Assembly (NCBI RefSeq): GCF_965641715.1
Contig: NZ_OZ282453.1
Length of the DNA stretch: 64,000 nucleotides
Source of the DNA: Escherichia coli
GTDB lineage: Bacteria > Pseudomonadota > Gammaproteobacteria > Enterobacterales > Enterobacteriaceae
Reading direction: 5' to 3' (one strand)
Shown: piece after piece, positions 4,729-32,964 of the stretch
Numbering within the stretch: the stretch's first letter is position 1
Layout of the letters: each line of letters begins with the position of its first letter
Made by a program: the position numbers and the translations under genes
The notes under the pieces: generated by a model
What the model was told of the DNA's origin: nothing
What the model saw: the letters and a program-made list of their open reading frames with translations, nothing else
Databases searched by the model: none

Positions 4729-5159
4729 CCGACCTCATCTATTTGATTAACTGTATGCCATCGTGGTGATGGCTTAACAGCTGCCTGCTTAAAATGTTTT
4801 GATAAAAAAACATTGACCTGAAAAGTTCATTTTTCTAAACTTCATTCATTCCCTCTCCCCACCCCACAGAATGCAGGGCAATACTTCGAGTTACCAGGCA
4901 GTGGTCAGGGGTTAAGTAGCCAGCCTGAGGCGTAAGAACATGACGGCAGGGTCCAACTTTAATAACTATGCAGCAGGTTTTTGTTCCGCTACCCCGGCGT
5001 TAAGGGGAAACAGAGGATTTCTCAGTGGGCGAAGTCAAACATCAGAATGGAAGGCATCACGGGATCGGCAAAGAAGCAGCAATGGCGCTTTATATTGACA
5101 TCAGCGCCATTGCCGGACAGGTAAGAGTTATCAGAGCGGTAACTAAGCGGTATGCGTCT

Positions 5160-5360
5160 TTATTTCAGAAAGTCTCTGGTGAGTGCACCGAAGATATTGT
5201 CAACGATTTCGTCATCGAACTGCGAGGACTCATCTTCAGTTACAAGGTGACCACAATTTTTGCAGATGGCTCCCGCGAAACTGTCAGAGCCCTGCGGCTT
5301 AAAGGATGTGTCAAAGACTTCGCCACCACATTCTGGGCAAGAAAACTTGATTGTATTCAT
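5160..5360 (-). CDS. Small zinc-ribbon protein (66 aa)
   Basis: CPECGG ... CKNCG motif pair; AGGAAA RBS 8 nt upstream of ATG; antisense to a 118-aa plus-strand ORF, so the coding strand is not settled. Confidence 0.45.
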   Translation of the reverse strand: MNTIKFSCPECGGEVFDTSFKPQGSDSFAGAICKNCGHLVTEDESSQFDDEIVDNIFGALTRDFLK

Positions 5361-5452
5361 AACCAATTTCCTCTCGAGTAACAGACCCCTCAGAGGATAC
5401 CACCTCGCCTGACGTGGTTAAAAGCAGGCAATGCGAACCACAAGGAGCTGAC

Positions 5453-5671
5453 ATGCAGAAACGAGAACCTGTCATCATCGCGCCAGACTATACCGATGAT
5501 GAACTTTATGAGTGGATGCGCCAGAAAATTAATGCAGCGCAGGATCTGAAATGGGCTAATGAAGCCAGGGCTAAGCAGGCTGAAAATCTGTTCTCTCTGG
5601 AGCAGGATATCACCAATCTGGAAAAAGCAGCGGCATTAAGCATTGCCAGAATGATTACATACCCACGTTAA
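5453..5671 (+). CDS. Small phage protein (72 aa)
   Basis: AAGGAG RBS 7 nt upstream of ATG (MQKREPVIIAPDY...). Confidence 0.4.
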   Translation: MQKREPVIIAPDYTDDELYEWMRQKINAAQDLKWANEARAKQAENLFSLEQDITNLEKAAALSIARMITYPR

Positions 5672-5693
5672 TAGCTAACCAACGAGGCTAATA

Positions 5694-6101
5694 ATGGAAT
5701 TTAAAGATTTACCAAAAGAAATCCAGACAATTGCTGCAACGACTCTCGGTGATAGTCTGGTGAAAATTGACCCGGCATACACCAAAAAAGAAACCATCGA
5801 TAATATGGTTCGTAATGTGCGCAATGCTTTTTCTGGGCTATATGGTTCTGATAATCAAAAGCAGGAAAGCGATGTTAATGAACGGGTAATTTCTGTTTGC
5901 GTGAATGGCCATGTTCTTTCATCAATCAAAACAGAAACAGCGACAGTCTTCGATTGCCTTTGCATTGTACAGAGCCTTGTTGATGCCCTGTTTCGTTCAG
6001 TGAATTTAGAAAATGATGCAAATCTGCGAGGGCGCACAATAGCACATCCATATGCACATACTTTAGGCTCTGTGGATATCAAAGATCCCACAAATCTTTA
6101 A
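5694..6101 (+). CDS. Hypothetical phage accessory protein (135 aa)
   Basis: GAGG RBS; 3' end overlaps the convergent 77-aa gene by 23 nt. Confidence 0.5.
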   Translation: MEFKDLPKEIQTIAATTLGDSLVKIDPAYTKKETIDNMVRNVRNAFSGLYGSDNQKQESDVNERVISVCVNGHVLSSIKTETATVFDCLCIVQSLVDALFRSVNLENDANLRGRTIAHPYAHTLGSVDIKDPTNL

Positions 6102-6312
6102 TGAAATAGTTAACGCGAATTGTACTTGCTCTTTCAGTTGCTTTCAGAATACGCGTTGAAACTGCTGGCGGTAATTTGGTATTCCATTTATTAAAATCAT
6201 GCCCGGGGAAGTACTCTTCGAAAATACTTTTAACTGCAGACTCGCCTATTGAAATGCTGCTTACCATGCGATTTTGATAAAGGCATTTAGCAATAAGAGT
6301 TGATTTTAACAT
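6079..6312 (-). CDS. Hypothetical small protein (77 aa), convergent with the early-left genes
   Basis: AGGAGG RBS immediately upstream of ATG. Confidence 0.4.
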   Translation of the reverse strand: MLKSTLIAKCLYQNRMVSSISIGESAVKSIFEEYFPGHDFNKWNTKLPPAVSTRILKATERASTIRVNYFIKDLWDL

Positions 6313-6803
6313 TCACCCTCCTGAGGGTTGGTAATTAAGGAGTTCTCCACGGGTGAGGTGGAGTGCGTGCGCCGGACACGGGTGAACATCCGGCACTGAC
6401 AGTTTACTGAAAGGATATTTCCCTGAAAAGTCAGACCATAACGCGAAAGCGCACGGCGAGGTAGCTGGTTCATAGATAGCCTGTCGTTAAATTTTCGTCG
6501 ACCGTGCGCTTCCGGTTGTGGCAACCCGCGAAATGGCGCGGCGGTAAGTATGGCGGGGTTATTCCTTCCCCGTTGAGGACACCGGGTTGTCAGGTTGACC
6601 ATACGCTTAAGTGACAACCCCGCTGCAACGCCCTCTGTTATCAATTTTCTGGTGACGTTTGGCGGTATCAGTTTTACTCCGTGACTGCTCTGCCGCCCTT
6701 TTTAAAGTGAATTTTGTGATGCGGTGAATGCGGCTAAGCGCACGCGGAACAGTTAAAACCAAAAACAGTGTTATGGGTGGATTCTCTGTATCCGGCGTTA
6801 ATT

Positions 6804-6817
6804 GTTAACTGGTTAAC
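6804..6817. promoter_or_regulatory. Palindromic GTTAAC-N2-GTTAAC site with a third GTTAA half-site adjacent (operator candidate)
   Basis: Read directly: cgTTAAttGTTAACtgGTTAACg, followed by a CCTGG-N5-CCAGG inverted repeat; ~60 bp upstream of the 62-aa gene start. Confidence 0.35.
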
Positions 6818-6872
6818 GTCACCTGGAGGCACCAGGCACTGCATCACAAAATTCATTGTTGAGGACGCGATA

Positions 6873-7061
6873 ATGAAAACGTTATTACCAAACGTTAATA
6901 CGTCTGAAGGTTGTTTTGAAATTGGTGTCACTATCAGTAACCCTGTATTTACTGAAGATGCCATTAACAAGAGAAAACAAGAACGGGAGCTATTAAATAA
7001 AATATGCATTGTTTCAATGCTGGCTCGTTTACGTCTGATGCCAAAAGGATGTGCACAATGA
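6873..7061 (+). CDS. Small protein (62 aa) with hydrophobic C-terminus
   Basis: GAGGA RBS; stop overlaps the next gene start (ATGA). Confidence 0.4.
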   Translation: MKTLLPNVNTSEGCFEIGVTISNPVFTEDAINKRKQERELLNKICIVSMLARLRLMPKGCAQ

Positions 7062-7249
7062 ATTCAGCATTTGCGCTTGTTCTGACAGTTTTTCTTGTTT
7101 CCGGAGAGCCAGTTGATATTGCAGTCAGTGTTCACAGGACAATGCAGGAGTGTATGACTGCAGCAACCGAACAGAAAATTCCCGGTAACTGTTACCCGGT
7201 CGATAAAGTTATTCACCAGGATAATATCGAAATCCCGGCAGGTCTTTAA
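7058..7249 (+). CDS. Small protein (63 aa) with N-terminal signal/TM segment
   Basis: AAGGA RBS; N-terminal hydrophobic stretch AFALVLTVFLVSG; translationally coupled to the preceding gene. Confidence 0.4.
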   Translation: MNSAFALVLTVFLVSGEPVDIAVSVHRTMQECMTAATEQKIPGNCYPVDKVIHQDNIEIPAGL

Positions 7250-7342
7250 AACAGTTCCGTAATAAATATCCGGTTTCATTCTTATATGCCAGCAATGGCA
7301 GGGATTTGTTCATCCTTAAATCTGTCATGAGGTTAAAACAAA

Positions 7343-32748: not shown

Positions 32749-32964
32749 GACATTTTCCTTTTTCAAATAGCCATGCGTTGCGCCATGCTACGCCGCGCCA
32801 CACTGCGAGTATAGAGTATGGTCGAGTTAAACCTGCTCTTTCAACCTTAACTCACGATTTCTTAAGCAAAAAATCGTTTTGCTGCCGTATTTATCTCCAT
32901 TATTCCCATTTCTGCCTGCGAATGCGCTGAAAAGACATTCTCTGTTTGGTTTACACGACAAATA

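What the first reader, a model, noticed from the sequence alone, without database searches (positions are those of the whole stretch)
6313..6872. GC-rich, hairpin-dense segment with doubtful coding potential inside the AT-rich accessory block
The segment is markedly more GC-rich than its neighbours and contains multiple perfect stems: GCCGGA-N12-TCCGGC, GCGC-gaaa-GCGC (GNRA-type loop), CGGGG-N9-CCCCG, and a 9-bp stem GGGTTGTCA-N19-TGACAACCC. The only ORF (6306-6644, minus strand, 112 aa, Arg-rich) has a TTG start and no convincing RBS, although its stop overlaps the start of the 77-aa gene. This could be a structured non-coding RNA, a decayed gene, or an unusual small basic protein. The upstream part (6645-6872) also carries the GTTAAC palindromes and a CCTGG/CCAGG inverted repeat.
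Basis: seen in the sequence. Interest (0 to 1): 0.6.

Follow-up and report, generated by a model that had tools for sequence, protein, structure and literature searches.

The report
Conserved pseudoknotted leader RNA preceding DicF
The GC-rich segment is not a gene but the long untranslated leader of a prophage cell-division-inhibitor operon: it holds the known small RNA DicF and, just upstream, a strongly conserved folded RNA domain that I could not find described, is always paired with a transcription terminator, and probably controls whether RNA polymerase reads on into the toxic downstream genes.

Summary
The sequence features are real. The segment is the untranslated ydfC–dicF–dicB leader of a Qin-type prophage, 98.8% identical to E. 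coli K-12.

- **DicF:** 6647-6698(+) is the known sRNA DicF (Rfam, 76.7 bits).
- **The ORF:** the 112-aa minus-strand ORF is not a gene. It is broken in 26 of 43 homologs, substitutions are flat across codon positions, and it has no PHROG family.
- **The new part:** 6505-6638(+) is a ~115-nt RNA domain with four helices (P0-P3) and a pseudoknot. On 96 distinct sequences, 95% of cells pair and 13 pairs show compensatory changes (0/500 shuffles reach this). Two unpaired blocks are nearly invariant.
- **Distribution:** prophages of Escherichia, Citrobacter, Trabulsiella and Izhakiella, and phages P1/P7, where it starts about 15-35 nt after the Pban promoter.
- **Terminator coupling:** at least 97% of variants have an intrinsic terminator 43-77 nt downstream. 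DicF is only one of at least six terminator types.
- **Known families:** no Rfam family matches the domain, and it is not related to HK022 put RNAs.

My best guess (~0.4) is a cis-acting leader RNA, nut/put-like in role, that governs read-through of the adjacent terminator. The main rival is an sRNA-biogenesis scaffold. Function is untested.

The parts
6326..6504 (+). Upstream part of the untranslated leader (Qin type). Contains hairpins 6371-6394 and about 6397-6435, and the 5' half of a long hairpin.
   Evidence: Homology to the E. coli K-12 (JM83) ydfC-dicF spacer starts at 6326, at 98.8% identity. No gene is annotated here by PGAP. This part is replaced by unrelated sequence in the cdtI, P1 and pPE4 types.
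6437..6520 (+). Long imperfect hairpin of 21 predicted pairs, with a conserved base and a hypervariable apex. Its 3' strand overlaps the boxA-like string and the 5' strand of P0.
   Evidence: RNAalifold on 21 sequences gives -27.8 kcal/mol. Changes are one-sided only (U·G<->C-G) and none is compensatory. It is also in the single-sequence MFE. Plausible, but not proven by covariation.
6505..6513 (+). boxA-like string UGCGCUUCC, immediately 5' of P0.
   Evidence: UGCKCUYUY is conserved across four unrelated upstream contexts. Identity to E. coli rrn boxA UGCUCUUUA is 6/9 here, 7/9 in the cdtI type and 8/9 in the Trabulsiella type; the string is absent in P1 and pPE4. The boxA definition is from PMC3177189. 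This is a lead only.
6505..6638 (+). Conserved structured RNA core, the new element. P0 is 6515-6522/6622-6629. P1 is 6526-6530/6537-6541. The pseudoknot is 6548-6553/6599-6604. P2 is 6554-6558/6568-6572. P3 is 6584-6592/6612-6620.
   Evidence: The covariance model R1 scores 157.8 bits here, and it is the only strong copy in the window. On 31 sequences 92.7% of cells pair and 12 pairs change on both sides, against 5.3±1.5 in shuffles. On 96 distinct sequences 95.1% pair and 13 pairs change on both sides, against 4.5±1.5 (0/500), with slid controls at 38-62%. With the pseudoknot positions left free, the scan found 163 UAU/AUA, 5 CAU/AUG, 3 UAU/AUG and none broken. No Rfam family matches at E<=1.
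6647..6698 (+). DicF sRNA (known). Its intrinsic terminator hairpin is 6661-6697, followed by a U-run at 6699-6703.
   Evidence: Rfam RF00039 scores 76.7 bits (gathering 48), E=2.8e-16, full length. All 135 canonical DicF copies sampled have the core upstream.
6708..6855 (+). Long-range duplex, 6708-6726 with 6837-6855 (19 nt, 1 mismatch), enclosing the dicF-dicB spacer. Probable RNase III site.
   Evidence: Found as a BLAST self-match. The DicF 5' end at 6647 plus 72 nt gives 6718, inside the 5' arm. This matches the literature's RNase III-generated 72-nt DicF (PMC5069750; PMC9438474). The assignment is an inference.
6696..6905 (+). dicB 5'UTR with an STnc100-like fold. It contains the GTTAAC hairpin and the CCUGG/CCAGG hairpin.
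   Evidence: Rfam RF02076 scores 34.8 bits, below its gathering score of 47 (E=5.5e-5). The two palindromes align to helices of the model. The same weak match lies upstream of kil in pPE4 and of tciA in P1.
6873..7061 (+). dicB (cell-division inhibitor), the first gene downstream of the terminator.
   Evidence: PGAP annotates it in the identical genome. It matches phrog_1251 at 134 bits.
6306..6644 (-). 112-aa ORF; not a gene.
   Evidence: It is intact in 17 of 43 distinct homologs, and codon-position substitutions are 141:119:142. It has no PHROG family and is not annotated by PGAP.

Best explanation
**Identity (confidence about 0.9).** The segment is the non-coding leader of the early-left, dicBF-type operon of a Qin-like lambdoid prophage, transcribed on the + strand. 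It contains, in order:
1. a variable upstream hairpin region;
2. a ~115-nt conserved RNA domain (6515-6629) of four helices plus a pseudoknot, with two nearly invariant unpaired blocks, GGCGCGGCGGUAAGUAUGGC and CAGGUUGACCAUACGC;
3. 17 nt further on, the sRNA DicF with its intrinsic terminator;
4. an RNase III-type stem enclosing the dicB 5'UTR.

**Mechanism (inferred, confidence about 0.4).** The conserved domain acts in cis on the polymerase that has just transcribed it. The nascent RNA folds, and by binding RNA polymerase and/or host elongation factors (possibly NusB/S10 through the boxA-like 5' edge) it lets part of the polymerases read through the terminator 43-77 nt downstream. Transcription then continues into dicB/kil, the exonuclease, xis and int. 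The polymerases that do terminate yield DicF-type sRNAs.

In role it would be an N-independent analogue of lambda nut or HK022 put, but it is not a member of either family.
For: - **Structure is real and strand-specific.** 95.1% of cells pair, 13 pairs change on both sides, and 0/500 shuffles reach this. Frequent G·U pairs would be A·C on the other strand. The pseudoknot is kept through U-A->C-G in P1.
- **Unpaired blocks are invariant even when not used as the search anchor**. That pattern suggests contact with a partner rather than a plain hairpin.
- **Position is always in the leader of a repressor-controlled early operon.**
  - In P1 the model match starts about 15 nt after the predicted Pban start, and helix P1 about 35 nt after it.
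  - In cdtI it lies about 265 nt after a strong PL-like promoter with an operator palindrome, itself preceded by the repressor gene's terminator.
  - In pPE4 it lies just after dicA.
  - Here and in K-12 it follows ydfABC.
- **A terminator follows in at least 97% of 106 distinct variants.** At least six unrelated terminator or sRNA bodies occur, and the linkers vary. P1, cdtI and pPE4 terminators are not DicF by Rfam. So what is conserved is 'core plus any terminator', with no conserved alternative pairing. That fits an effect independent of terminator sequence.
- **No N-like antiterminator was found in the operon**.
- **The literature shows both outcomes.** Transcripts terminated at DicF and full-length dicBF transcripts both exist (PMC5069750; PMC9438474).
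Against: - There is no experimental evidence for any effect on termination.
- The domain is not similar to HK022 putL/putR by BLAST or by covariance model.
- There is only one copy per prophage and no PR-side partner, unlike putL/putR.
- The boxA resemblance is weak in the commonest (window) type (6/9) and absent in P1 and pPE4.
- Complete linkage with DicF (135/135) fits a biogenesis role equally well.
- The terminator may simply be leaky without any help.
- All homologs are fairly close relatives within Enterobacterales, so few independent substitutions underlie some helices. P1 has no compensatory pair, and the pseudoknot has one covarying position.
Confidence: 0.4

Rival explanations
1. 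sRNA biogenesis or stability scaffold. The folded domain is a 5' module of the DicF-family precursor. It would position RNase E cleavage in the A/U-rich linker, or protect the precursor, so that a defined sRNA is released. It would have no effect on RNA polymerase.
For: - DicF's 5' end is made by RNase E from the polycistronic transcript, and the cut lies 17 nt after P0 (PMC5069750).
- Every canonical DicF sampled has the core upstream (135/135).
- The module is flanked by RNase III-type long duplexes.
Against: - In the cdtI and P1 types the terminator follows with almost no single-stranded 'seed' and is not DicF-like.
- The core is far more conserved than the sRNA bodies it precedes.
- Known stem-loop guides for RNase E do not need a pseudoknot or 20-nt invariant unpaired blocks (general knowledge).
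Confidence: 0.25
2. Sensor-type attenuator (riboswitch-like or protein-binding leader). The domain binds a metabolite or a host or phage protein and switches the adjacent terminator on or off.
For: - The architecture resembles an aptamer: a multi-helix junction closed by P0, a pseudoknot, and invariant unpaired nucleotides directly upstream of an intrinsic terminator.
- The GUUGUGG strand can pair either upstream (long hairpin) or downstream (P0), giving two possible conformations.
Against: - No Rfam riboswitch family matches.
- No alternative pairing between the domain and the terminator is conserved across the six terminator types, and linker length varies from 1 to 39 nt.
- The upstream alternative helix lacks covariation and is absent in the P1, pPE4 and cdtI types.
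Confidence: 0.13
3. Independent trans-acting or catalytic RNA, for example a decoy or sponge for a host factor or a new self-cleaving ribozyme, that merely shares a transcript with DicF.
For: - The strong conservation of loop sequences could reflect base-pairing or binding to a host partner.
- Prophage leaders are known sources of regulatory RNAs (PMC7547250).
Against: - The conserved loop hexamer is used intramolecularly in the pseudoknot.
- No discrete transcript is documented.
- The constant coupling to a terminator and to promoter-proximal positions points to a cis role.
Confidence: 0.08
4. The 112-aa Arg-rich minus-strand ORF (6306-6644) encodes a small basic protein.
For: The open frame exists in the window, and its stop overlaps the start of the 77-aa gene.
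Against: - It is frameshifted or interrupted in 26 of 43 distinct homologs, including ones >98% identical.
- Substitutions are even over codon positions.
- It has no PHROG family.
- It has a TTG start with no RBS.
- PGAP does not call it.
Confidence: 0.01

Closest known systems
HK022 put RNAs (putL/putR), factor-independent processive antiterminator RNAs
   Same: - Both are structured nascent RNAs in the leader of a repressor-controlled early operon of a temperate enterobacterial phage that lacks an N gene.
- Both are promoter-proximal or lie a few hundred nt downstream.
- Both have conserved non-helical nucleotides and tertiary pairing; the put cryo-EM structure shows a triplex and non-canonical pairs (PMC9378689).
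- In HK022 a hairpin plus U-run lies just downstream of putL (read).
   Different: - There is no sequence or covariance-model similarity.
- This domain is about 115 nt with four helices and a pseudoknot, against about 70 nt with two stems.
- There is a single copy per phage and no PR-side copy.
- RNAP beta' zinc-binding-domain dependence is untested.
Lambda nut sites and the rrn leader (boxA/boxB, NusB-S10 dependent antitermination)
   Same: - A boxA-like string, UGCKCUYUY, sits at the 5' edge. It is followed 12-14 nt later by a 5-bp GC hairpin with a purine-rich 5-6-nt loop, which is boxB-like in shape.
- It sits in the same place in the PL-type operon as nutL.
   Different: - boxA identity is only 6/9 in the window's type, and the string is absent in P1 and pPE4.
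- No N-like protein gene was found.
- Most of the conserved domain (pseudoknot, P2, P3) has no counterpart in nut.
DicF (RF00039) and 3'UTR or intra-operonic sRNA precursors
   Same: - DicF itself lies in the segment.
- The new domain is part of the same 'long untranslated region' (PMC5069750).
- It is invariably linked to DicF.
   Different: - The domain lies outside the DicF model.
- It is more widely distributed than DicF (P1, cdtI and pPE4 types, where Rfam finds no DicF).
- It is more conserved than DicF.
Riboswitch or terminator attenuators
   Same: A closed multi-helix junction with a pseudoknot lies immediately upstream of an intrinsic terminator.
   Different: No known class matches (Rfam 15), and no conserved antiterminator/terminator alternative pairing exists across variants.
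STnc100 (RF02076)
   Same: The dicF-dicB spacer (6696-6905) aligns over the full STnc100 model, including the GTTAAC and CCUGG/CCAGG hairpins.
   Different: The score is 34.8 bits, below the gathering score of 47. It concerns the part downstream of DicF, not the GC-rich core.

Membership tests
DicF sRNA (Rfam RF00039) | Match to the family covariance model above the gathering score | tested here: met
   76.7 bits against a gathering score of 48, model positions 1-52 of 52, at 6647-6698(+).
DicF sRNA (Rfam RF00039) | Rho-independent terminator at the 3' end, located upstream of dicB in a dicBF-type operon | tested here: met
   Hairpin at 6661-6697 plus U-run at 6699-6703. dicB lies at 6873-7061.
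HK022 put RNA | Sequence and structure similarity to putL/putR | tested here: not met
   No BLAST hit (word size 7, E<=10) to the HK022 immunity region. Model R1 gives no hit at putL (L007 about 8245-8318, minus strand) or putR (about 9455-9530); the best HK022 hit is 8 bits, elsewhere.
HK022 put RNA | Two copies, one downstream of PL and one downstream of PR | tested here: not met
   A single copy in 64 kb of prophage.
HK022 put RNA | Acts in cis on RNAP through the beta' zinc-binding domain, without protein factors | not testable with these tools
   Needs rpoC ZBD mutants or in-vitro transcription.
Lambda-type nut site | boxA (NusB/S10 site; 8 nt, GCUCUUUA-like) | tested here: inconclusive
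   UGCGCUUCC in the window is 6/9 identical to E. coli rrn boxA. The figure is 7/9 in the cdtI type and 8/9 in the Trabulsiella type, and the string is absent in P1 and pPE4.
Lambda-type nut site | boxB hairpin bound by a phage N protein encoded downstream | tested here: not met
   Helix P1 is a 5-bp stem with a 5-6-nt loop. No N or antiterminator PHROG appears among the operon's proteins or in the cdtI, pPE4 or Evi annotations.
Any Rfam 15 family (riboswitches, ribozymes, sRNAs) | cmscan match over 6313-6646 | tested here: not met
   No match at E<=1 in the window, nor at E<=0.1 over the homologous cores of P1, cdtI and pPE4.
STnc100 (RF02076) | Match above the gathering score | tested here: not met
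   34.8 bits against a gathering score of 47 at 6696-6905.
Protein-coding gene (112-aa ORF) | Frame conserved among homologs with an excess of third-position substitutions | tested here: not met
   17 of 43 homologs intact; substitutions 141:119:142.
tRNA/tmRNA | ARAGORN detection | tested here: not met
   No genes found in 5500-7500.

The most novel reading that the evidence does not exclude
The domain is a second, structurally unrelated class of factor-independent (or Nus-factor-only) antiterminator RNA, after HK022 put. It would modify RNA polymerase in N-less lambdoid prophages and in the phage P1 ban operon, and so decide between making a DicF-type sRNA and expressing the division inhibitors and recombination and excision genes. 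Alternatively, it is a new riboswitch or ribozyme class sitting in E. coli K-12 itself.
Probability: 0.3. Interest if true: 0.85.

Novelty: new variant of a known kind. Interest (0 to 1): 0.62.

Why it matters
DicF and the dicBF operon have been studied since the 1980s, and phage P1 for longer. Yet the most conserved RNA feature of these leaders has no Rfam family, and I found no description of it in the searchable literature.

- **Prevalence.** The 851-nt region 6050-6900 has at least a partial match in 4,740 of 5,426 complete E. coli genomes, usually at more than one place. Many matches start near the K-12 homology boundary at 6326. That count is for the region, not the core alone.
- **Position.** It sits exactly where the cell chooses between a harmless terminated sRNA and expression of lethal division inhibitors (DicB, Kil) and excision functions.
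- **If it controls read-through,** it would explain how N-less Qin-type prophages and the P1 ban operon pass their promoter-proximal terminators. It would also add a new class to a very short list of RNAs that reprogram RNA polymerase.
- **If it is instead a biogenesis module,** it would explain how a family of interchangeable prophage sRNAs is produced.

Either way it is directly testable in K-12.

Tried and rejected
- **Protein-coding reading of the 112-aa ORF.** Rejected.
- **Homology to HK022 put.** I located putL and putR by reconstructing the numbering from the cryo-EM paper. BLAST and the covariance model find nothing. Only a shared 9-mer, GCGCGGCGG, remains, which I treat as chance.
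- **A second, PR-side copy in the window.** None found. The weak model hit at 32804-32922(-), 15 bits, shows no resemblance on inspection.
- **tRNA or tmRNA.** None.
- **Thermodynamic significance of the core alone.** z=0.07, so it is not informative.
- **Covariation for the long upstream hairpin.** None found.
- **A conserved antiterminator pairing between the core and the terminator.** I inspected six terminator types and found none shared. My first terminator finder was faulty and I redid it.
- **Literature.**
  - No hit for the core sequence.
  - Nothing on the upstream region in the DicF papers I could read.
  - Faubladier & Bouché 1994, the Łobocka 2004 P1 genome paper and Murashko 2017 are not held.
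  - From memory, the 1994 paper reported conserved prophage sequences around dicF, so the sequence conservation itself may have been noted before.
- **DicF without the core.** Never seen in 135 copies, so this test did not separate the two leading hypotheses.

Full report
**Observation.** The segment is GC-rich: 0.50-0.57 in 6300-6700, against 0.375-0.42 on both sides. 'GCGC-gaaa-GCGC' is really CGC-GAAA-GCG at 6442-6451. The 112-aa TTG-start ORF at 6306-6644(-) exists and overlaps the 77-aa gene's start.

Folding energy alone is weak evidence. The 393-nt stretch folds better than shuffles on both strands (z=-2.55 and -2.69). The 134-nt core alone does not (z=0.07). The case for a real structure therefore rests on comparison with homologs.

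**What the locus is.** An Rfam scan finds the sRNA DicF at 6647-6698(+), at 76.7 bits over the full model. The ORF at 6873-7061 is dicB, followed by ydfD and an exonuclease gene. Upstream lie a LexA/cI-type repressor, ydfC and two hypothetical genes.

From 6326 onward the sequence is 98.8% identical to the ydfC-dicF-dicB region of the Qin prophage in an E. coli K-12 derivative. The 851-nt region 6050-6900 has at least a partial match in 4,740 of 5,426 complete E. coli genomes, with a median of two places per genome. The finding is therefore the 'long untranslated region containing dicF' of the dicBF operon (PMC5069750).

The literature I could read says the following about this region:
- DicF's 5' end is made by RNase E.
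- Its 53-nt form ends at the terminator.
- A 72-nt form ends at an RNase III cut.
- Nothing is said about the GC-rich block upstream.

**Not coding.** Among 43 distinct near-full-length homologs, the minus-strand frame is intact in only 17. A 1-nt indel in the P2 hairpin breaks it even at >98% identity. Substitutions are spread 141:119:142 over codon positions. The ORF has no PHROG family, while all nine neighbouring proteins do. PGAP annotates nothing there.

**The conserved core.** A sub-segment, roughly 6515-6637, is conserved well beyond Qin-type prophages.

Three collection scans with different anchors gave about 180 loci and 93-106 distinct variants. Two 'unpaired' blocks, GGCGCGGCGGUAAGUAUGGC and CAGGUUGACCAUACGC, are almost invariant even when they were not the search anchor. 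The hairpin between them changes freely but always pairs: CGGGG/CCCCG, CUGGG/CCCAG, CCCGGG/CCCGGG, CCAGGG/CCCUG, CGAGG/CCUCG.

I propose the following structure:

| Element | 5' strand | 3' strand |
|---|---|---|
| P0 | 6515-6522 | 6622-6629 |
| P1 | 6526-6530 | 6537-6541 |
| Pseudoknot | 6548-6553 | 6599-6604 (in the P3 loop) |
| P2 | 6554-6558 | 6568-6572 |
| P3 | 6584-6592 | 6612-6620 |

The covariation tests gave:

| Alignment | Cells paired | Pairs changed on both sides | Shuffles reaching this | Slid controls |
|---|---|---|---|---|
| 31 diverse sequences | 92.7% | 12 (shuffles 5.3±1.5) | 0/500 | 33-55% paired |
| 96 distinct sequences, model-based | 95.1% | 13 (shuffles 4.5±1.5) | 0/500 | 38-62% paired |

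- With the pseudoknot triplets left free in the search pattern, I found 163 UAU/AUA, 5 CAU/AUG (compensatory, P1 type) and 3 UAU/AUG (G·U), and none that break pairing.
- Abundant G·U and U·G pairs in P0 are valid only for a + strand RNA.
- P1 shows no compensatory change, and the pseudoknot has only one covarying position. Those two elements are less secure than P0, P2 and P3.
- The model-fitted alignment leans towards the model's own structure, and all sequences are fairly close relatives.

**Range.** A scan of species-representative genomes, checked with the model, finds true members in Escherichia coli, E. albertii, another Escherichia species, two Citrobacter, Trabulsiella and Izhakiella. 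Salmonella phages also appear among the BLAST hits. Hits in Firmicutes or Actinobacteria MAG bins are near-identical to E. coli copies and look mis-binned.

**Context.**
- In P1 the model match starts about 15 nt after the predicted start of the C1-controlled Pban transcript, and helix P1 about 35 nt after it. A terminator follows (GCCCAUCUUCGGGUGGGC plus U6-8), then three tRNA genes and ban.
- In cdtI the order is repressor gene, terminator, a strong promoter (TTGACA-16-CATAAT) overlapped by an operator-like palindrome shared with the cI-cro region, about 265 nt of leader, the core, a terminator, a perfect long-range duplex, then the first gene.
- In pPE4 the core follows dicA and precedes kil.
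- In the window and K-12 it follows ydfABC.

Among 106 distinct downstream sequences, 91 have a hairpin of at most -10 kcal/mol plus a U-run. Eight more have a -9.6 kcal/mol GGCGG...CCGCC hairpin, and five have a longer hairpin beyond my length limit. Only two or three lack a terminator. The U-run lies 43-77 nt (median 64) after P3. At least six unrelated terminator or sRNA bodies occur, and those of P1, cdtI and pPE4 are not DicF by Rfam. Conversely, all 135 canonical DicF copies sampled have the core upstream. The constant unit is thus 'core plus a terminator', and DicF is one version of the terminator part.

**Comparison with known systems.**
- No Rfam 15 family matches the core, here or in P1, cdtI or pPE4.
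- HK022 putL and putR, which I located from the cryo-EM paper's description, share no detectable similarity, and the window has no second copy. The element is therefore not a put RNA, although it occupies the equivalent place in N-less phages.
- Immediately 5' of P0, four unrelated upstream contexts share UGCKCUYUY. This resembles boxA (E. coli rrn UGCUCUUUA; PMC3177189) at 8/9, 7/9 or 6/9 positions depending on type. It is weakest in the window's type and absent in P1 and pPE4. P1 is a 5-bp GC stem with a purine-rich 5-6-nt loop, which is boxB-like in shape.
- No N-like protein was detected. This is a lead, not a membership.

**Mechanism (inference).** I see four points for a cis effect on elongation, that is, read-through of the adjacent terminator and possibly later ones, exerted by the folded nascent RNA on RNA polymerase with or without host Nus factors:
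1. The location is promoter-proximal in repressor-controlled operons.
2. The element is obligatorily coupled to a strong terminator of any sequence.
3. No conserved alternative pairing links it to that terminator.
4. The unpaired nucleotides are invariant.

This would account for the coexistence of terminated (DicF) and full-length transcripts. From memory, DicB is expressed when DicA is inactivated in the defective Qin prophage, and ban is expressed in constitutive P1 mutants. Both imply passage of these terminators without induced phage proteins. I put this explanation at about 0.4.

The main rival, at about 0.25, is a processing or stability scaffold for DicF-family sRNAs. A ligand- or protein-sensing attenuator (about 0.13) and a trans-acting or catalytic RNA (about 0.08) remain possible. 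None of these can be separated computationally here.

**Other parts of the finding.**
- *Upstream long hairpin.* The Qin-type leader has a long hairpin at 6437-6520 with a conserved base and a hypervariable apex. It is energetically strong (-27.8 kcal/mol consensus) but has no compensatory changes. Its 3' strand overlaps the boxA-like string and the 5' strand of P0, so it would compete with P0. Deletion variants that lack it keep the core.
- *Downstream duplex.* A 19-nt duplex, 6708-6726 with 6837-6855, encloses the dicB 5'UTR. The reported 72-nt DicF would end at about 6718, inside its 5' arm, so this is most likely the RNase III site.
- *Enclosed spacer.* The enclosed spacer, with the GTTAAC and CCUGG/CCAGG hairpins, aligns to STnc100 below threshold (34.8 against 47 bits).

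**Verdict.** The 'structured non-coding RNA' reading is right and the protein reading is wrong. Part of the segment (DicF, and the RNase III and RNase E processing) is textbook. The pseudoknotted core is a well-supported RNA family that I could not find described, of known general kind (a phage leader RNA coupled to a terminator) but unrelated to nut, put or any Rfam family. Its function is unproven. Older papers that I could not read may already have noted the sequence conservation.

Noticed in passing
window 6708-6726 and 6837-6855: A 19-nt inverted repeat (1 mismatch) encloses the dicF-dicB spacer. The 72-nt DicF form reported in the literature would end inside its 5' arm, so this is the probable RNase III site. 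cdtI-type leaders have an analogous perfect duplex (CAAAACAGAGAAGA / UCUUCUCUGUUUUG) right after their terminator (L004 about 2177-2262).
   Followed up: partly
window 6696-6905; L005 2258-2442; L003 3842-3961: Sub-threshold STnc100 (RF02076) matches of 34.8, 39.1 and 33.4 bits (gathering score 47). They lie in the 5'UTRs of dicB (window), kil (pPE4) and tciA (P1). P1 also shares a 28-nt identical stretch with window 6720-6747.
   Followed up: partly
window 5694-6312: A 135-aa gene (+, phrog_1363) and a 77-aa gene (-, phrog_10348, strong AGGAGG RBS at 6320-6325) are inserted between ydfC and the leader, relative to K-12 Qin. The 77-aa gene is antisense to the operon and abuts the leader, so its promoter would have to lie inside the leader's opposite strand.
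   Followed up: no
window 5025-5381(+) and 5160-5366(-): Two completely overlapping ORFs on opposite strands both hit PHROG families: phrog_21318 at 218 bits for the + ORF, and phrog_4852 at 40 bits for a CxxC...CxxC 68-aa minus ORF. One of the two families is probably built from mis-called ORFs.
   Followed up: no
L005 2086-2262 (phage pPE4): The linker and sRNA-like terminator module that follows the core is tandemly duplicated.
   Followed up: no
L228, L229, L117, L174, L029, L036 (Trabulsiella and Izhakiella type): The terminator hairpin after the core has a long loop carrying AGGAGG plus AUG and a short ORF (for example MFCRSPSFLRNRKEH...). The ORF runs through the 3' strand of the terminator, so translation could interfere with termination.
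   Followed up: no
L143, L065: Rare variants in which the core is followed directly by an RBS and an ORF (MIVQCTDGNNKLLW...), with no terminator.
   Followed up: no
L011, L019: Deletion variants. Recombination between two AACGCGAAA repeats removes the long hairpin, the boxA-like string and the 5' strand of P0, while the rest of the core and DicF are kept.
   Followed up: no
L225, L227, L231, L232 (genome contigs): MAG contigs labelled Bacillota, Collinsella and Lachnospiraceae carry cores nearly identical to E. coli or P1 copies (94-153 bits). This is probably mis-binned enterobacterial prophage DNA.
   Followed up: partly
L011/L012, L143/L144, L009/L197, L247/L248: Some single viral contigs (about 44-98 kb) gave two separate loci. 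L011 and L012 each carry a model-confirmed core. L197 has the 5' conserved block followed by unrelated sequence and only a weak 51-bit model match. L144, L247 and L248 were not checked with the model. These may be adjacent prophages or mosaic recombination products.
   Followed up: no
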